From the IMG/VR virus record IMGVR_UViG_3300028840_002847, positions 2,188-66,187 of that record: DNA of 64,000 nt; one strand, 5' to 3'. The notes beneath the pieces are model-generated. The model did not search any database. It was not told the DNA's origin and was given only the letters and a program-made list of their open reading frames with translations. Made by a program: the position numbers and the translations under genes. The DNA is from a virus. Its lineage: Duplodnaviria; Caudoviricetes. Position 1 is the first letter of the stretch. Each line of letters begins with the position of its first letter. Shown here one piece after another: positions 16,293 to 63,906 of the stretch.

Positions 16293-16312
16293 GCTCTAAG
16301 ACCGAAGAAGAA

Positions 16313-16383
16313 GGGAAGGTGTCCTCCAGCCGGATCCCACGGTTGGGAGAGGTCGTTGTCTCGGCGGCCTCTCCCACCTTCCC
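16313..16383 (+). promoter_or_regulatory. structured intergenic RNA element after the capsid gene
   Basis: GGGAAGGTG (16313-21) pairs with CACCTTCCC (16375-83) and encloses two overlapping inner hairpins. Confidence 0.5.
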
Positions 16384-16401
16384 GACTTTCCGGAGGTATC
16401 A

Positions 16402-50431: not shown

Positions 50432-50689
50432 TTAAAAGGGTAATACACACTGCCCTCCAAAGGTCATACGGTACTGTGCGACGTGGCAATCGTTTCCGAA
50501 TCGGTCCCTCACCGTTACAGTGGGCGCTTGGATATCGAAGTCGGCAGGGTACTGTTTTCCCCTTTTATCCTTTATGCGGTAGATAACCGCGGACAGCCTA
50601 CTCGCTCCGAACATCTCCTTTGCCTTGTCTTGGGTGAGGGCTTTACCTTTTCGGAGGTACTCATAGATCATTCTTTCCTTCGTTGCCAT
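50432..50689 (-). CDS. winged-helix DNA-binding protein
   Basis: YLRKGKALTQ..A..MFG.SRLSAVIY. Confidence 0.7.
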   Translation of the reverse strand: MATKERMIYEYLRKGKALTQDKAKEMFGASRLSAVIYRIKDKRGKQYPADFDIQAPTVTVRDRFGNDCHVAQYRMTFGGQCVLPF

Positions 50690-51032
50690 TGGCGGCCTCC
50701 TGCTCTGCGATAAAGTCGGTTATCTCTTGAGGGATAAACAGCCCTCCCATGTCGGCAAGCTCAACTACTAGGCTTGCTAGCGGCAAGAGGACAGGGCTTA
50801 CCTTGGGTGTGCGCTTCCGGTAGAACCTCTTGCGGGCTGTAAACTTCACTCCCGCATACCGCAAGACCCCCTTCACGTTGCTCGGCGAAATCTTAAAGCC
50901 GAGTTCCTTGCTCATTGTCTTAGCAAGGTCTTCGCTATGAGGACGGGTAGCACATAGGTGCTCCTTGCGGTCTTTAACGTATTGGTCGCACGTTACCTTC
51001 TGCTCAAAATTGAGCGTGTTTCTTTTTGTCAT
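50661..51032 (-). CDS. putative DNA-binding protein
   Basis: LAKTMSKELGFKISPSNV HTH-like segment. Confidence 0.5.
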   Translation of the reverse strand: MTKRNTLNFEQKVTCDQYVKDRKEHLCATRPHSEDLAKTMSKELGFKISPSNVKGVLRYAGVKFTARKRFYRKRTPKVSPVLLPLASLVVELADMGGLFIPQEITDFIAEQEAANGNEGKNDL

Positions 51033-51061
51033 TATGTCCTCCAATTGTTATAGACTTGTTG

Positions 51062-51247
51062 TTACAAGCCTAAATTACGTCCCCAATGAAATATATATCC
51101 GCAGCCGCTCCGGCATATAGGAACTGTTTCAGCAACGGCTTGTTTTTCGGGAGTAGCATAAGAGCACCCGCAAACGGGGCACTCCCAAACCCGAGCCTCG
51201 TCTGAGTCGATATTATAATCGACGTTAATTTTTCGGTAATGCGGCAT
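51062..51247 (-). CDS. zinc-ribbon mini-protein
   Basis: WECPVCG...C.SGCG; SD AAGGAGG before ATG 51247. Confidence 0.55.
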   Translation of the reverse strand: MPHYRKINVDYNIDSDEARVWECPVCGCSYATPEKQAVAETVPICRSGCGYIFHWGRNLGL

Positions 51248-51270
51248 ATTGCCCTCCTTTAGGTTATTGA

Positions 51271-51406
51271 TATAGCTGTACCGGATTCCCCTACTCCGGC
51301 TCCCTTCTACTCGTCCCGTGATAGCTTGTGCTTTAGTAGAGCACACCGCAATGGAAACGATAACTGCGGCATCTAACCCCGGCGCTACTAACGCCGATCA
51401 GCTATA
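51271..51406 (-). ncRNA. candidate multi-branched structured RNA with complementary 7-nt loops
   Basis: 8-bp closing stem and four inner hairpins; loops TTAGTAG and CTACTAA are exact reverse complements. Confidence 0.6.
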
Positions 51407-51409
51407 ATT

Positions 51410-52555
51410 TTATTTAGGTAATTTTTCCTTAATGATGGTACTCGAAAGCCTAGTGGTTAACTTCTTTTCTCCTTCCCTGTTAAGGATATTAAGGACCTGT
51501 TCATTCTCAAGGGCAAGGCCCCTCAGAGCCGCCATGTCCGGTTTGAAGAACCGCATAGGCTCAATACCCAAAGTCTCAAGCGCCTCAAAGAGCGCCTTGG
51601 AATTGAGCTTCTTCCATGACACCGTTGAGGACCATCTATAAGACCTGCCAATGCTATTGAAGTCGCCTACGGCATCAGCATAGTCCCTGATAGCGCTGTT
51701 AGCGTCTTCCGCTATTGTCTTGGCTACCGAATAGTCCTCGACTACTTTATCTATCTCCTTTTGGTTTCTTGGAAAGGGATACCGCACCGGCTTCGCTCCT
51801 TTTTTCATAGCAGGGCAGTAATTCCTCACCCCACACCGCCGGCAATGGTCTCCAATCCTCGGTTTCCATTTTTTGTCCTCAGCTATCTGCGCCACCCGCG
51901 ACATGATTTTATCATGCAGCATGGGTAGTTGGTCCCGGGTGTAAACTACCGGGTCGGTAATATGCTCAAACCTTATAAAGTCAAAGTCGCAATATACCTC
52001 CTGCACCTGAGGATACTGGATAAGAACGGCCCACGAATAACACTCTATCTGGAACACGTCAGCTTTCATTTCATTGCTGGTCTTAACGTCCCGGATAAGG
52101 GCCATGTGTTTGTTAATCCACAGCCTGTCGAGTATCAGCCTAAACCATGCGTCGTCTGCAACCCAACCCGTCTCATCGAGGGAACTATTAAGGGCTATCC
52201 GCTCCTCAATACCGATAAGGCCTTTGAGGTCGAGTTCGTGGTAGGATACGTAAGACTCCATTAGCTGATAGACTTCTTCTTCAAGCTCTGAGGTTAAAGG
52301 AGGACTAGACAGGCCTATCGCTTTCTTTGCGCAAGCCTTCCAATCCCCTAGGGAGTGAGTTACTTTCTGCTTCCAGCAAACCGTGTCATAGAATGCTGTT
52401 GCTTCGTGAACGACACCGCCGAGCAGTAGCGGAGGTGCCATTACCTGCGGGCGCTTTTGGATATAGATGATATACCACGCCCGCGGGCACTCGTTATATT
52501 TCCTCAGCTTGCTATAAGAATAAGCTAAGGGTGGGTCTTTTTTCTTCTTTGCCAT
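51410..52555 (-). CDS. PD-(D/E)XK RecB/Cas4-like exonuclease
   Basis: SYSKL..Y.ECP, G.VVH, ILDRL...DVKTS, Q..CY, C..C....CP. Confidence 0.85.
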   Translation of the reverse strand: MAKKKKDPPLAYSYSKLRKYNECPRAWYIIYIQKRPQVMAPPLLLGGVVHEATAFYDTVCWKQKVTHSLGDWKACAKKAIGLSSPPLTSELEEEVYQLMESYVSYHELDLKGLIGIEERIALNSSLDETGWVADDAWFRLILDRLWINKHMALIRDVKTSNEMKADVFQIECYSWAVLIQYPQVQEVYCDFDFIRFEHITDPVVYTRDQLPMLHDKIMSRVAQIAEDKKWKPRIGDHCRRCGVRNYCPAMKKGAKPVRYPFPRNQKEIDKVVEDYSVAKTIAEDANSAIRDYADAVGDFNSIGRSYRWSSTVSWKKLNSKALFEALETLGIEPMRFFKPDMAALRGLALENEQVLNILNREGEKKLTTRLSSTIIKEKLPK

Positions 52556-52565
52556 TATAGCCTCC

Positions 52566-53672
52566 CTAGTTGTCCAATTGCCGGCGGTCGATCTCTTCGT
52601 TGATCGCCTTAACCATCTTCTCGACAGCTACTACCGGGTCTTTCTGTTTCTGGATCCATGCAGTCCAATGTTGGACCTGCTTCGCCTGAGAGTAGCCGAG
52701 GATAGCGTAACCCTCCCTTACTTCTTCCGGGATATCCTCATAGGCGACAGCCTTGGTCTCAATCTGCATCAACTCCGCTTTAAGCTGATCGAAGTCGCCG
52801 ACTTTGACCTCGTTAAGGCTCTTATACCCTAACTTATCAACCACTATCTGATGTAAGCCCTTGTGGTAGATACCCTTCTCGGCCGCTGTCGCTTCGAGGA
52901 AGCGCTTTTGACCGTCGGTGAGGAAGCGCACCTCTCTGTCATTGAGTTGCTTGACGTGGCTACCGCCGTCTAAGCGCTTAAACATCTCAATAATCTCAAG
53001 CTGTAAGGGGTAAGGGATAAGGGAGAGCCGAGCGTTGCGCTGGGCCTTGCTGACAGCCTTCTCAAACGCAAACGGATCATCAACTACTATCCGCTTCGCA
53101 TTGGCACCCTTGCCCTTCCATATGCTCTGCTTTTTCCATTGGCGCTTAGAACCGATAGCGCTGTCGAGCATCACCTCACCGCCACCGTTGCCGTTCCTGC
53201 AACCGCGCAGGTCGAACCTCCCAACCTGAACTACGGCCCGGATATATTCGGCGTCCTCTATAATGGTAGGAGTGCTGAGGACCCGGTAGGCAATGTCATA
53301 CTTGGTAAGCAGATGCTGGCAAGCCATCTCCACTCCCACCTTAGACAGCCCGAAGAGCTCTTTGCCCTTCGTCTTGAAGTGGTAGACATACTTATCAGCG
53401 AGTTGCCCTGCCATTGACAGAGCAATTTGGTGATCGTCTTCGGAGTCAAATACGAGGAAGGGTGTCGCATCTCCCCCGGAGGCTTTGACAATCTCCGTAG
53501 TCGAGGCCGCCTCAATAGCCTCCCATATTTTATCTTTGGCCCAAGACTTATTGACCGCAATGCCGGTTTCCGTGGCATATTCCAATAAGTCAGCCTTCTT
53601 TGAGTTCTTATTCACAGGCAGAACCGCACCTGTTTCTTCCTTTCCCTCGGCGGGGGCTTTCTTTTTAGTCAT
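52566..53672 (-). CDS. single-strand annealing protein (Rad52/Sak-like, putative)
   Basis: AFEKAVSKAQRNA helix; adjacent to the exonuclease gene. Confidence 0.55.
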   Translation of the reverse strand: MTKKKAPAEGKEETGAVLPVNKNSKKADLLEYATETGIAVNKSWAKDKIWEAIEAASTTEIVKASGGDATPFLVFDSEDDHQIALSMAGQLADKYVYHFKTKGKELFGLSKVGVEMACQHLLTKYDIAYRVLSTPTIIEDAEYIRAVVQVGRFDLRGCRNGNGGGEVMLDSAIGSKRQWKKQSIWKGKGANAKRIVVDDPFAFEKAVSKAQRNARLSLIPYPLQLEIIEMFKRLDGGSHVKQLNDREVRFLTDGQKRFLEATAAEKGIYHKGLHQIVVDKLGYKSLNEVKVGDFDQLKAELMQIETKAVAYEDIPEEVREGYAILGYSQAKQVQHWTAWIQKQKDPVVAVEKMVKAINEEIDRRQLDN

Positions 53673-57937: not shown

Positions 57938-59359
57938 CTATTTGATTATCTTTACAACCTCACCATAGGGTACCTCCTTCTGGAATTGATCCGTCTTTTT
58001 CCCGTCGCTTGTCAGGACCCAGAGGACGGGATAATCTGGTTCCTTAGCATACTTATTCGCATAGCCGTCAGTCATATAAAGCAGACCGCTCGGCTCTATG
58101 TCATGCTCCTCGACATACTCAAAGGCGATATCAAAAGTAGTACCGCCCCTGCCCTGTATCTCAAACTGCTCCGGCTTGAGGGGAAGGTCGTCGCTACTAA
58201 ATGACTGCGGTTTATGGACTTGGGTATCAGCCCACAGCAGGAGCACCTCAACCTCAAACTGCTCCATAAAACCGATCGTCTCAGACACGACCTCGCACAG
58301 CGCTTCCTTATCCATTGACCCGCTTGAGTCGCAGACTACTACTATCGGGCCAAGCTCTGGGCTCTGCAGGCTAGGAGCGTAAAGCCCTCGCCGTTTCGCG
58401 TCCTCGTCACCTTCGGTCCAATCGTACTCGTTGGCTCCTATCTCATCTAGCCAATCAATGATATAGGTTGTGAAATTGATCGTTGGTTGAAATATTTCGC
58501 TGAGGATTGCCTCTATGCCTGCCGTACCAAAACCGGCCTGCTTGGCAACCGCCGCCGCTGTCTGAACCTTCTGCCGCCAGCGCTGTAACTCCGTCCTTTT
58601 CTCCTGCTCGCTTGCGGCCCGTCCGGTAACCGGACTCTTATAATCTTCAACTCCACCGCAGCCGCCCGGGTCTGGCGCAGCCTGCGAACCTTTCCCGCCT
58701 GCTTGCCCGGGTTGAGGGGTGCCTTGCCCCTGCCCCTGCCCTTTGCCTTGCGGCTTCTGGTTAGGAGCCTGCCCGCTCTGCGGCTGGGTAGGTTTCCCTT
58801 GCGCTTGCGGTTGCCCCTGCCCTTGCCCTTGCTTAGGCGGGCTCTGAGGGCTTTGACTCTGCCCCTGTCCCTGCCCCTGTCCTCCTTGGGGAGAGGAACC
58901 GTCTTGCTTGGGGGGAGGATTCTCCTTGCTGTGCCCTGCCGCTACTAGCAAGCCATATACCTGCTCCGCTGACTTCCCTTTAAAGCGCTCTTCGCAATAG
59001 CACCAATCCGGAATGATAAACAACGGGTTACGCTGTCTGTCCGTCATATATTTCATGATGAGGTTAACGGCATGGTCGCAAGCTATATTCCAAAGGTACG
59101 GATCCCGGTTGCCTCGCCTGAGGTGATGCCCTAAAGCACAATGGGCAACCTCATGGCAGAGGACGAACTTAACCAAGTCCATCGTCAGCTTGAGGACGAA
59201 GTCCGGGTTATACCTTATCCGGCTACCGTCGGTTGACATCGTTTCAATGGAGCCGTCCTCAACCATCGGCATACCTAGCAACATACCTGCGAACCAAACT
59301 AAGCGCAGGACAATCACGGACCGGGCCTTACTTAAAACAACACTCGCCTTACTTTTCAT
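57938..59359 (-). CDS. DUF2201-type metallopeptidase-vWA protein
   Basis: STDG, HEVAH..L.H..R, WNIACD; Gln/Gly/Pro linker; DSSGSM MIDAS, GRGGT, TDG. Confidence 0.9.
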   Translation of the reverse strand: MKSKASVVLSKARSVIVLRLVWFAGMLLGMPMVEDGSIETMSTDGSRIRYNPDFVLKLTMDLVKFVLCHEVAHCALGHHLRRGNRDPYLWNIACDHAVNLIMKYMTDRQRNPLFIIPDWCYCEERFKGKSAEQVYGLLVAAGHSKENPPPKQDGSSPQGGQGQGQGQSQSPQSPPKQGQGQGQPQAQGKPTQPQSGQAPNQKPQGKGQGQGQGTPQPGQAGGKGSQAAPDPGGCGGVEDYKSPVTGRAASEQEKRTELQRWRQKVQTAAAVAKQAGFGTAGIEAILSEIFQPTINFTTYIIDWLDEIGANEYDWTEGDEDAKRRGLYAPSLQSPELGPIVVVCDSSGSMDKEALCEVVSETIGFMEQFEVEVLLLWADTQVHKPQSFSSDDLPLKPEQFEIQGRGGTTFDIAFEYVEEHDIEPSGLLYMTDGYANKYAKEPDYPVLWVLTSDGKKTDQFQKEVPYGEVVKIIK

Positions 59360-59399
59360 ACACACCTCCTTGTGGTGGGTTTTGGTTTATACTGCTAGG

Positions 59400-59429
59400 G
59401 CGGGGAAGGGCTTCGACACCCTCCCCCGC
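59400..59429. repeat. conserved-loop hairpin, copy 2
   Basis: GCGGGGAAGGG-CTTCGACA-CCCTCCCCCGC. Confidence 0.75.
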
Positions 59430-60447: not shown

Positions 60448-61458
60448 TCAACTGCTGTGGATACTGCTATGCTGAACGGCCCAACTTTGAAAAGCACTGC
60501 AAGCCGCCGTCTCCGGCAAGCGCTCTACGCAATCCATAACCAGCATGGTGGAAAATTCATGCGGTAACCGGTTAGCATAGGCAATGATTGAATCAATGGT
60601 ATCGTCTGCCGCCCGGGCCGCAAGCGCTACGCAGGTCGCATACAAAATATCGGTCTGCGAAGTCTCGTCCGGTATGGGAGCCGAGTCCGGCTTGAGGATA
60701 ATGAGGTCCGGATTAGGCATCTCTTTGTGCTTGCGGTGAAAGTCATAAAACTTAGCGCCCGCCTGCTCTCCTACTAGCCCTGAGAATAGCTCTGGCAGGA
60801 CCTCTTCCGGATATTCATCCCAAAGAACGTCGCTCACCTTTTCCCACGTCCTCGGGCAAGGATAGTTGCTCATATCCCGGGTGGCTTTGAAATTGACGAA
60901 ATTATCCTGATCAAATCTTACATAGGCTATTACCTCAGGGTTGATATTGTTTGCCAGCGCCCACTTACTCCACCCGTCTATGTCGGGGTCAAGCTCAAGC
61001 ATCCAAGCCGCCGCCGATTTCATTATCGGCATAAGACCCCGGACCCCGCTCTTGTCCTCCTTGCGGTTGGTGGCGATTATGATTACCACCTCGTCCGAGA
61101 TTTTCTTCCCGGCTAGCTCGCCGCCGTGAAAGAGTTGACGGAAAGGCGCTTGCACCGAGTCCAAAGCCTGCCCGAAGTCATCAGCGAAATAAACCGTCCG
61201 CTTGGTGACATTCATCAGCTTATACAAATCGCCGTAGGGCTTGTGCTCCGCATGGTCCCCGGCATCAAAGCCGTAACCCTGATAGGTTGTCGGGTTCGCA
61301 ACGGACGGGTGACCGAGGATCAAGTCGGCTTCCTCTAACTGCGCCGCCAAGTTGACCAGCGACGTCTTCCCCGTGCCGGGTAGGCTGTGGATAATCACGT
61401 TCCTTTTCTGACGGATCGCGATTCTCACGCACTCCAATACTGTCTGGGTTGTTGCCAT
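60448..61458 (-). CDS. MoxR-like AAA+ ATPase
   Basis: PGTGKTS Walker A, FADDFGQA, ATNR..D, PCPRTWE. Confidence 0.9.
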   Translation of the reverse strand: MATTQTVLECVRIAIRQKRNVIIHSLPGTGKTSLVNLAAQLEEADLILGHPSVANPTTYQGYGFDAGDHAEHKPYGDLYKLMNVTKRTVYFADDFGQALDSVQAPFRQLFHGGELAGKKISDEVVIIIATNRKEDKSGVRGLMPIMKSAAAWMLELDPDIDGWSKWALANNINPEVIAYVRFDQDNFVNFKATRDMSNYPCPRTWEKVSDVLWDEYPEEVLPELFSGLVGEQAGAKFYDFHRKHKEMPNPDLIILKPDSAPIPDETSQTDILYATCVALAARAADDTIDSIIAYANRLPHEFSTMLVMDCVERLPETAACSAFQSWAVQHSSIHSS

Positions 61459-61623: not shown

Positions 61624-61653
61624 TCGGACCGGGGCTTCGACACCTCGATCCGA
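61624..61653. repeat. conserved-loop hairpin, copy 3
   Basis: TCGGACCGGGG-CTTCGACA-CCTCGATCCGA. Confidence 0.75.
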
Positions 61654-62697: not shown

Positions 62698-62729
62698 AAG
62701 CGCTTGAGGCTGCGACACCCCTAGCGCTT
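62698..62729. repeat. conserved-loop hairpin, copy 4
   Basis: AAGCGCTTGAGG-CTGCGACA-CCCCTAGCGCTT. Confidence 0.7.
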
Positions 62730-62820
62730 CAAAGCGCAGGCCCTCACCTGCTCTAACCCTTAGTCAGCTTAGGGTTCAGGGCAACCACCCTTATGAACCC
62801 TAAGCTCTCCTTAGGCTTCC

Positions 62821-63081: not shown

Positions 63082-63161
63082 GCTCTCCTCCTTGTTCTCC
63101 TTATGGTTCGTGGCACCCTGCCCCTCAGAGCCTAAGCTCTCCTTAGTGTTTCTATGGTATG

Positions 63162-63191
63162 GCTAGCGCAGGCTTCGACACCTGCGCTAGC
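63162..63191. repeat. conserved-loop hairpin, copy 5
   Basis: GCTAGCGCAGG-CTTCGACA-CCTGCGCTAGC (perfect 11 bp). Confidence 0.8.
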
Positions 63192-63782: not shown

Positions 63783-63877
63783 CTTATCCTCCTTGCCCTC
63801 TCAGGGCATTGGTGAGCTTAGGTTTTCGCACCACTAGGCGCTAGAGCCTAAGCTCTACTTATGCTTTATTGCATATG

Positions 63878-63906
63878 GGTTGAGCGGCTTCGACACCTGC
63901 TCAACC
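63878..63906. repeat. conserved-loop hairpin, copy 6
   Basis: GGTTGAGCGG-CTTCGACA-CCTGCTCAACC (one bulge). Confidence 0.75.

What the first reader, a model, noticed from the sequence alone, without database searches (positions are those of the whole stretch)
51271..51406. Candidate new structured RNA with a perfect 7-nt kissing-loop pair
Seen (+ coordinates): closing stem TATAGCTG 51271-78 / CAGCTATA 51399-406. Inner hairpins are CCGGA/TCCGG (51281-99), TGTGCT-[TTAGTAG]-AGCACA (51327-45), CCGCA/TGCGG (51346-69) and CGGCG-[CTACTAA]-CGCCG (51380-96). The two 7-nt loops are exact reverse complements. Two further CTACT copies (51291, 51307) offer alternative partners. The element fills the gap between the exonuclease stop and the next SD in an otherwise tightly packed operon. 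I do not recognise it as tRNA or as a riboswitch or ribozyme I know. Inference: a tertiary-folded cis-regulator, ribozyme or small RNA.
Basis: partly seen in the sequence, partly recalled or inferred. Interest (0 to 1): 0.75.

Follow-up and report, generated by a model that had tools for sequence, protein, structure and literature searches.

The report
Orphan hairpin cluster in phage operon
A 136-base gene-free stretch in an uncultured phage really does carry five perfect stems and two hairpin tips that match each other exactly, but it folds no better than its neighbours and has no visible relative, so whether it is a working RNA remains open.

Summary
The genes lie on the minus strand. The element fills the 162-nt gap between a PD-(D/E)XK exonuclease gene and a 61-aa Cys-rich gene in an IMG/VR phage record.

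The one unusual feature is the pair of 7-nt loops, which are exact complements. This occurs once in the window and in 0 of 200 shuffled 64-kb windows.

The rest is ordinary:
- Folding z-scores are -1.2 to -1.9 on the transcribed strand. Five of 12 other gaps in this phage score lower.
- All 29 pairs are Watson-Crick, and the plus strand folds as well as the minus strand.
- The ribosome-binding site stays free, and no promoter or terminator lies inside the gap.

It matches no Rfam family, tRNA or tmRNA, and not a model of T4 rnaC. Only one relative exists, known from proteins alone, and no scan returned its DNA. Covariation therefore could not be tested.

Best guess (0.35): an intercistronic mRNA fold with loop-loop docking. 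Chance is almost as likely (0.33).

The parts
51410..52555 (-). Upstream gene: PD-(D/E)XK (RecB/Cas4-like) exonuclease, 381 aa. Stop TAA at 51412-51410.
   Evidence: Pfam PF12705 E 4.9e-18; phrog_69 'exonuclease' E 1.7e-24
51248..51409 (-). Non-coding gap of 162 nt that holds the element.
   Evidence: The relative's downstream protein P0151 is also 61 aa, which favours the ATG at 51247 over the GTG at 51346.
51399..51406 (-). 5' arm of the closing stem on the transcript (UAUAGCUG). It starts 3 nt after the exonuclease stop.
   Evidence: I10; pair probability 0.87-1.00
51380..51396 (-). Hairpin D: CGGCG-UUAGUAG-CGCCG on the transcript. Its loop can close further through U-A and U-G pairs.
   Evidence: pair probability 0.88-1.00
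51346..51369 (-). Hairpin C (CCGCA/UGCGG, 14-nt loop). Weak on the transcribed strand.
   Evidence: Pair probability 0.17 on minus and 0.73-0.80 on plus
51327..51345 (-). Hairpin B: UGUGCU-CUACUAA-AGCACA on the transcript. Its loop is the exact complement of the loop of D.
   Evidence: pair probability 0.76-0.89
51281..51299 (-). Hairpin A: CCGGA-GUAGGGGAA-UCCGG on the transcript. It lies 2 nt before the 3' arm of the closing stem.
   Evidence: pair probability 0.93-0.96
51271..51278 (-). 3' arm of the closing stem (CAGCUAUA). It ends 11 nt before the Shine-Dalgarno sequence.
51253..51259 (-). Shine-Dalgarno sequence AAGGAGG of the downstream gene. The element does not pair with it.
51062..51247 (-). 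Downstream gene: 61-aa Cys-rich (CxxC...CxxxC) protein of unknown function.
   Evidence: No Pfam or PHROG hit. Small zinc-finger clusters are its nearest look-alikes in the Atlas, score 0.92, a lead only. P0151 is 85% identical.

Best explanation
The gap is transcribed as part of the minus-strand operon message. That message runs from a helix-turn-helix gene through a 368-aa gene, the exonuclease, the gap and the 61-aa gene, and then onward. In the RNA the gap folds into a closed multi-hairpin domain: an 8-bp closing stem holding hairpins D, B and A, with C optional. Within it the 7-nt loops of D (UUAGUAG) and B (CUACUAA) can dock as a 7-bp loop-loop helix.

The domain starts 3 nt after the exonuclease stop codon and ends 11 nt before a free Shine-Dalgarno sequence. 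Its most likely job is therefore that of an intercistronic structural module. It would shield or mark the message between the two cistrons, acting as a stability or processing element. It would also let the 61-aa gene start translation independently. It is not an on/off switch on the ribosome-binding site.

Shown: the stems, the loop complementarity, the strand of the genes, the free ribosome-binding site and the absence from catalogued families.
Inferred: transcription through the gap, folding in vivo, the loop-loop contact and any function.
For: All stems are perfect, and four of the five helices have pair probabilities of 0.76-1.00 on the transcribed strand.

The loop pair occurs once in the window and in 0 of 200 shuffled windows. 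The duplex energy of the two loops is -5.4 kcal/mol.

This is the only gap above 60 nt among the 12 junctions between 47.5 and 54.1 kb.

No open reading frame accounts for the gap. The relative's downstream gene is also called at 61 aa.

Other gaps of the same phage carry clearly selected hairpins directly after stop codons, so gene-end RNA hairpins are in use in this genome.

The element is identical in contigs of four runs from four coded studies. Run X1 may be the source of the window itself, and the runs may sample one population.
Against: The fold is not unusually stable. Whole-gap z is -1.36, and 11% of 300 shuffles fold as well. Five of 12 other gaps in this phage score lower.

None of the 29 pairs is G-U. 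The plus strand gives an equal or better z-score (-2.25 against -1.85). Nothing therefore singles out RNA on the minus strand over palindromes in the DNA.

On the transcribed strand hairpin C is improbable (0.17), and the loop of D tends to close to 3 nt.

There is no anti-Shine-Dalgarno pairing, and no promoter-like or terminator-like site inside the gap.

No homologue was found anywhere, so there is no conservation or covariation evidence.

The downstream protein differs from its only relative at 7 of its first 8 residues but at only 2 of the other 53. The DNA next to the element is therefore not conserved between the two known relatives.

One such loop pair per about 1,600 random windows is expected by my arithmetic, so a scan of many windows will meet chance cases.
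Confidence: 0.35

Rival explanations
1. Chance. The gap is a spacer with no sequence-specific role, for example what a past recombination between phage modules left behind. The short perfect palindromes and the 7-nt loop match are then coincidence.
For: Folding z-scores are in the ordinary range. Five of 12 other gaps fold better against their own shuffles. An 8-bp inverted repeat somewhere in 162 nt is expected about 0.2 times by my arithmetic. No regulatory logic is visible. The start of the neighbouring gene is highly diverged from the only relative. The feature was picked after the fact from a scan of very many windows.
Against: 0 of 200 shuffled windows show such a loop pair. It also falls in the roughly 10% of the window that is non-coding, inside a closing stem. 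Phage genomes rarely keep 160 nt of idle DNA inside a tightly packed operon (general knowledge).
Confidence: 0.33
2. A DNA-level site. The palindromes TGTGCT-N7-AGCACA and CGGCG-N7-CGCCG, and the 13-bp inverted repeat GCTTTAGTAGAGC / GCGCTACTAACGC, would be binding sites on double-stranded DNA for dimeric phage proteins. The site would act as an operator, or as a replication or recombination site inside the recombination module.
For: All 29 pairs are Watson-Crick and the structure is equally good on both strands. The inverted repeat extends to 11 of 13 positions beyond the loops (I2). The CTACT/AGTAG word occurs four times. Two helix-turn-helix genes lie in the same operon.
Against: No promoter-like site lies in the gap for an operator to control. 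Neither palindrome recurs elsewhere in the 66-kb record. Four copies of one 5-mer in 136 nt has roughly a 0.1 chance by my arithmetic. Base composition shows no origin-like signal.
Confidence: 0.15
3. Scar or remnant of a small insertion. A 136-nt piece with 8-bp terminal inverted repeats would have landed between the two genes and partly duplicated the 3' end of the exonuclease gene.
For: The terminal inverted repeats are TATAGCTG/CAGCTATA. Flanking direct repeats exist: AATTACCTAAA/AATAACCTAAA (10 of 11) and CATTAAGGAAAAATTA/CATTACCGAAAAATTA (14 of 16), D7 and D1. The best local alignment of the two flanks scores 22, reached by 1.45% of 2000 shuffles. The first 8 codons of the downstream gene differ from the relative.
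Against: The direct repeats do not abut the inverted repeats, and they lie in swapped order. The element is single-copy in the record. It was not found in any collection. A p of 0.015 is weak after looking at 15 repeat families.
Confidence: 0.1
4. A free small RNA that is cut out or separately transcribed.
For: The closing helix joins the 5' and 3' ends. The two loops are complementary within one molecule. The loop of D starts UUAG, which fits the YUNR U-turn word of fast-pairing antisense loops (motif recalled from memory, not from a call). Earlier notes of this scan report other phage RNAs with pairing tips. Those are leads only.
Against: No promoter or terminator on either strand. No RNA run is listed. 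No match to any Rfam model or to the rnaC model. No tRNA cluster or processing signals nearby.
Confidence: 0.07

Closest known systems
Phage T4 species 1 RNA (rnaC, NC_000866 70908-71046, 139 nt)
   Same: The size is similar (139 against 136 nt). The two ends pair. Two internal hairpins have complementary tips, UUGACG and CGUCAA. Both tips are invariant in the 5 T4-like sequences I aligned. The function is unknown.
   Different: rnaC folds far better than chance (z -4.57 against -1.83). It carries a tRNA-type T arm (GGTTCGAATCC) and lies in a tRNA cluster. The element here has no such arm. The window has no tRNA gene. A covariance model of rnaC scores only 1.9 bits, E 6.6, over the element. 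It shares the design but is not a member.
phi29 prohead RNA (pRNA)
   Same: Each is one RNA closed by a 5'/3' helix, with two hairpin loops that are complementary to each other. In pRNA these loops pair between molecules to build a ring (recalled from memory).
   Different: pRNA loops pair over 4 nt. pRNA belongs to small phi29-like phages and is needed for DNA packaging (recalled). Here the loops pair over 7 nt, the setting is a recombination operon of a phage of more than 66 kb, and no Rfam model matched at E<=10.
ColE1 RNA I / RNA II loop-loop ('kissing') complex
   Same: Both involve fully complementary 7-nt hairpin loops, a geometry known to form a stable loop-loop helix (recalled from memory).
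   Different: There the two loops sit on two antisense transcripts and control plasmid replication. Here both loops are on one strand, 45 nt apart. No antisense transcript is indicated, and no Rfam match was found.
Gene-end hairpin family of the same phage (apical motif GGTGTCGAAGCC)
   Same: These are intergenic hairpins on the same strand, placed shortly after stop codons without a U-run.
   Different: That family has five copies with a conserved tip and entirely different lower stems. This is internal evidence of selection for pairing. The element in the finding is single-copy and shares no motif with the family.

Membership tests
Any Rfam 15 family (4227 models) | Covariance-model score at or above the family's gathering threshold | tested here: not met
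   Whole window at gathering scores: 0 matches. Region 50800-51900 at E<=10: only DLEU2_6, 15.2 bits against 60, E 5.8.
tRNA / tmRNA | Cloverleaf or tmRNA detected by ARAGORN | tested here: not met
   0 genes in 64 kb
T4 rnaC (species 1 RNA) family | Match to a covariance model built from 5 T4-like rnaC sequences | tested here: not met
   Best match overlapping the element is 51380-51426(-), 1.9 bits, E 6.6. Filters were off. The model is narrow, with an effective sequence number of 1.07.
T4 rnaC (species 1 RNA) family | tRNA-like T arm (GGTTCGAATCC) next to the terminal helix, and a position in a tRNA cluster | tested here: not met
   The loop of hairpin A is GUAGGGGAA. The window has no tRNA gene. 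In T4-like phages the RNA sits beside tRNA genes.
T4 rnaC (species 1 RNA) family | Two hairpin tips complementary to each other | tested here: met
   7 of 7 here. UUGACG/CGUCAA in rnaC are invariant in 5 of 5 sequences.
phi29 pRNA | Sequence and structure match to the catalogued family | tested here: not met
   No Rfam match at E<=10. That pRNA is an Rfam family is recalled from memory.
Intrinsic terminator | G+C-rich hairpin followed directly by a U-run on the transcribed strand | tested here: not met
   No terminator-like site inside 51248-51409 on either strand. Hairpin D is followed by GGGUUAGAUG.
RBS-sequestering leader or riboswitch expression platform | Pairing of the Shine-Dalgarno sequence or start codon with part of the element | tested here: not met
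   The Shine-Dalgarno sequence stays outside the fold in the minimum-energy and centroid structures. The transcribed strand of the element holds no CCUCC-type word.
MITE-like mobile element | Terminal inverted repeats flanked directly by a target-site duplication, with several copies | tested here: not met
   An 8-bp terminal inverted repeat is present. The direct repeats are 2 and 6 nt away from it and imperfect. The element is single-copy in the record and absent from the collections searched.

The most novel reading that the evidence does not exclude
The element is a real, uncatalogued phage RNA domain whose two 7-nt loops dock on each other, or pair between molecules as in phi29 pRNA. Both loops have the shape of anticodon loops: U at position 2, a purine at position 6, and middle triplets AGU and ACU that are mutual complements. 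It could therefore be a pair of anticodon-arm mimics embedded in a recombination-operon message. Such mimics might act as a decoy for tRNA-directed host defences or as a self-assembling RNA. This would make it one more case of the T4 rnaC-type design, whose function has never been explained.
Probability: 0.1. Interest if true: 0.6.

Novelty: new variant of a known kind. Interest (0 to 1): 0.27.

Why it matters
If real, this would be one more independent case of a phage RNA built around two hairpin tips that pair with each other. That design occurs in T4 rnaC and phi29 pRNA. In this case it sits inside a protein-coding operon rather than in a tRNA cluster. A recurring design in unrelated phages would suggest a general function that has not yet been worked out. 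As it stands, the case rests on one coincidence-level statistic in a single sequence, so it matters little until a relative or a probing experiment is available.

Tried and rejected
**Search for homologues, all without result**
- blastn of 50600-52600 against GenBank phages: no match.
- tblastn of the exonuclease: 4 records, all Rhizobium phages, at 23.6% identity.
- The search for related loci in viral contigs with the exonuclease, the 61-aa protein and P0002: none confirmed.
- The search for related loci in metagenome contigs with alignment A1: 312 pattern matches, none confirmed.
- A 20-sequence alignment was too diverged to give search patterns.

**Pattern scans**
- Exact 17-mers of hairpins D and B in viral contigs gave 5 and 2 stretches. 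None shows further likeness.
- A gapped pattern of hairpin D plus the partner loop in genome contigs gave 0.
- A looser gapped pattern of both loops with their GC flanks gave 10 stretches in metagenome contigs and 6 identical stretches in viral contigs. Judged from the printed flanks, none has local hairpins around the loops or wider likeness.

**Sequencing runs**
- No RNA holder is listed.
- Contigs of X4, X5 and X6 carry the element with 0 differences, so they show no variation to analyse.
- A diverged strain appears only as short contigs inside the exonuclease gene (18 differences over 51428-51565). These stop before the element.

**Other readings rejected**
- Coding: the GTG-started 94-aa frame and the 21-aa and 29-aa frames have no support.
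- Recoding signal: I see no slippery heptamer before the stop, and stops follow in the other frames (read).
- The second TATAGCTG/CTACTAA pair near 43.4 kb lies inside a small membrane-protein gene, so it is a coincidence.
- The 7-mer AGUAGCG shared with T4 rnaC is at chance level by my arithmetic.

**Other calls**
- GC-skew profiles gave no origin signal.
- A literature search for kissing-loop phage intergenic RNAs returned 4 listed papers, none on this kind of element. I saw the listing only.

Full report
**What and where.** The window is part of an IMG/VR virus record of 66,187 bases, rated 74% complete. The same sequence occurs in sediment and seawater metagenome runs. Between about 41 and 64 kb the genes run on the minus strand.

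The flagged stretch lies in a 162-nt gap (51248-51409). Upstream is a 381-aa PD-(D/E)XK exonuclease gene at 51410-52555 (Pfam PF12705, E 4.9e-18; phrog_69, E 1.7e-24). Downstream is a 61-aa Cys-rich gene at 51062-51247, with the Shine-Dalgarno sequence AAGGAGG at 51259-51253.

A longer GTG-started frame of 94 aa runs into the element. The only relative of this protein, P0151, is 61 aa long, so the ATG start is the better call and the gap is non-coding.

A sigma-70-like promoter (TTGCCT-18-TATAAT, 10 of 12) lies at 54148-54119 on the minus strand. It sits in front of a helix-turn-helix gene. The likely message is therefore HTH gene, 368-aa gene, exonuclease, gap, 61-aa gene, and onward. The 368-aa protein has no Pfam or PHROG hit and only faint Rad52/ERF-like look-alikes in the Atlas (TM 0.24-0.26, a lead only).

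**Check of the observation.** The two 7-nt loops, TTAGTAG at 51333-39 and CTACTAA at 51385-91, are exact reverse complements.

The complementarity extends with two mismatches to 13 nt, GCTTTAGTAGAGC against GCGCTACTAACGC (I2). As an ordinary helix this pairing has probability 0.00 in the ensemble.

The 11 other junctions between 47.5 and 54.1 kb have gaps of -29 to 60 nt. "Tightly packed" holds for that segment. Further upstream, gaps of 86-190 nt are common.

**Is it more than chance?**

The loop pair is unusual. I searched for two hairpins with perfect stems of at least 5 bp, 7-nt loops that are fully complementary, and at most 150 nt between them. This gives 1 case in the window and 0 in 200 dinucleotide shuffles of the 64 kb. 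With a 6-nt match the shuffles give 0.05 per window, and with 5 nt they give 0.36. From the 67 such hairpins per shuffled window I estimate about 6e-4 per window for the strict case. That is rare for one window but is expected many times over in a scan of very many windows.

The fold as a whole is not unusual:
- 166 nt on the minus strand: z -1.16, and 26 of 200 shuffles fold as well.
- 166 nt on the plus strand: z -0.64.
- The exact gap: z -1.36 (minus) and -1.23 (plus), with 300 shuffles each.
- The element cut at its closing stem, a choice made after seeing the stem: z -1.85 and -2.25, or -1.83.
- Among 13 gaps of this phage folded on their transcribed strand, this gap scored -1.78. Five of the other 12 scored between -2.22 and -3.34.

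**The fold on the transcribed strand.** Pair probabilities are 0.87-1.00 for the closing stem, 0.88-1.00 for D, 0.76-0.89 for B and 0.93-0.96 for A. Hairpin C reaches only 0.17. A CGUUUCC/GGGACG helix around B replaces it. The loop UUAGUAG of D is predicted to close by two more pairs to a 3-nt loop, and docking would have to open these. The duplex energy of the two loops is -5.4 kcal/mol.

None of the 29 stem pairs is a G-U pair, and the plus strand folds at least as well relative to its shuffles. The sequence therefore gives no sign of which strand matters, or of whether RNA rather than DNA is the active form.

**Regulatory logic.** The domain begins 3 nt after the exonuclease stop and ends 11 nt before the Shine-Dalgarno sequence. 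That sequence stays unpaired in the minimum-energy and centroid folds. No promoter-like or terminator-like site lies inside the gap on either strand. None of the hairpins is followed by a U-run. I see no slippery heptamer before the stop. Nothing in the sequence suggests a switch, an attenuator or a recoding signal.

**Known families.**
- Rfam 15 gave nothing. One spurious lncRNA hit appeared at E 5.8, and there were no hits at gathering scores over the whole window.
- ARAGORN found no tRNA or tmRNA.
- Earlier notes of this scan pointed to T4 rnaC as the nearest known design, so I tested that. T4 rnaC folds with z -4.57. In an alignment of 5 T4-like sequences its two tips, UUGACG and CGUCAA, are invariant. 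A covariance model built from that alignment gives only 1.9 bits (E 6.6) over the element, with filters off.
- The element also lacks the tRNA-type T arm of rnaC and its tRNA-cluster setting.

It resembles rnaC in design (size, paired ends, complementary tips) but is not a member of that family.

**Relatives.** The exonuclease has one relative at 90% identity (P0001, on a 15,007-nt contig). A full HMMER scan of 1.84 billion representatives found 1312 proteins at E<=0.001, but the next best are only 33-36% identical. The downstream protein has one relative, P0151, on the same contig.

No collection returned DNA of that contig or of any other relative. Pattern scans for the hairpins and for the loop pair found only unrelated sequences. 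The element is single-copy in its own record. Contigs of three further runs carry it without a single difference.

Covariation, the decisive test, therefore could not be run.

One indirect hint goes against conservation. P0151 differs from the window's protein at 7 of the first 8 residues but at only 2 of the remaining 53. The DNA directly next to the element is thus not conserved between the two known relatives.

**Alternative readings.**
- DNA-level palindromes for dimeric proteins would explain the all-Watson-Crick, strand-neutral character. They lack a promoter to act on and do not recur elsewhere.
- An insertion scar is suggested by the 8-bp terminal inverted repeats and by imperfect direct repeats at both edges (D1 and D7). 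The repeats do not abut the ends, and the best flank alignment is reached by 1.45% of 2000 shuffles.
- A free small RNA lacks a promoter, a terminator and any RNA evidence.

**Verdict.** The loop complementarity is the single feature beyond chance at the level of one window. Everything else is ordinary, and the interpretation cannot be tested with the sequence available.

My best estimate is an intercistronic mRNA fold with loop-loop docking (0.35). Coincidence is nearly as likely (0.33). A DNA site (0.15), an insertion scar (0.10) and a free or multimerising RNA (0.07) follow.

If real, it is an uncatalogued variant of the phage RNA design with pairing hairpin tips.

Noticed in passing
window 59409-59420, 61633-61644, 62708-62719, 63171-63182, 63886-63897 (minus strand): A family of five intergenic hairpins shares the apical motif GGTGTCGAAGCC, which forms 3 bp plus the loop GUCGAA. 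Four copies are exact and one has 1 mismatch. Each sits on 8-9 further base pairs whose sequence differs completely from copy to copy, so pairing is kept by compensatory change. At least two copies (those at 59409 and 63171) lie shortly after a stop codon, and none is followed by a U-run. No Rfam match. This is better evidence for a selected hairpin than anything in the flagged element.
   Followed up: partly
window 63127-63139 and 63843-63855 (minus strand); weaker copy at 62795-62807: The small palindrome GAGCTTAGGCTCT occurs twice exactly, each time about 30-40 nt downstream of a GGTGTCGAAGCC hairpin. The two gaps at about 63.1 and 63.85 kb therefore look like copies of one intergenic module.
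   Followed up: partly
window 16293-16401 (plus strand): This 109-nt gap after a 394-aa gene folds into a long branched hairpin at -53.2 kcal/mol, z -3.91, with 0 of 200 shuffles as stable. It is the most strongly structured gap measured in this window.
   Followed up: no
window 51062-51247 (minus strand) versus P0151: The 61-aa Cys-rich protein differs from its only relative at 7 of its first 8 residues but at only 2 of the other 53. Codons 3-8 (CATTACCGAAAAATTA) resemble the last codons of the exonuclease gene read in another frame (CATTAAGGAAAAATTA, 14 of 16; D1; p about 0.015). This may be a recombination boundary.
   Followed up: partly
window 57938-59365 and 60448-61458 (minus strand): A 475-aa protein carries DUF2201_N and VWA-like DUF2201 domains (E 1.8e-35 and 2e-17). 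PHROGs labels it 'HNH endonuclease' (phrog_1314). Two genes upstream of it on the minus strand lies a 336-aa ATPase (phrog_1297, E 3.1e-53). The two libraries name the first protein differently.
   Followed up: no
L026 409-547 (T4 rnaC) and alignment A3: In 5 T4-like phages the two rnaC hairpin tips, TTGACG and CGTCAA, are invariant. The stem of the first hairpin differs widely in two of the five sequences, KaAlpha and NM4.3.
   Followed up: partly
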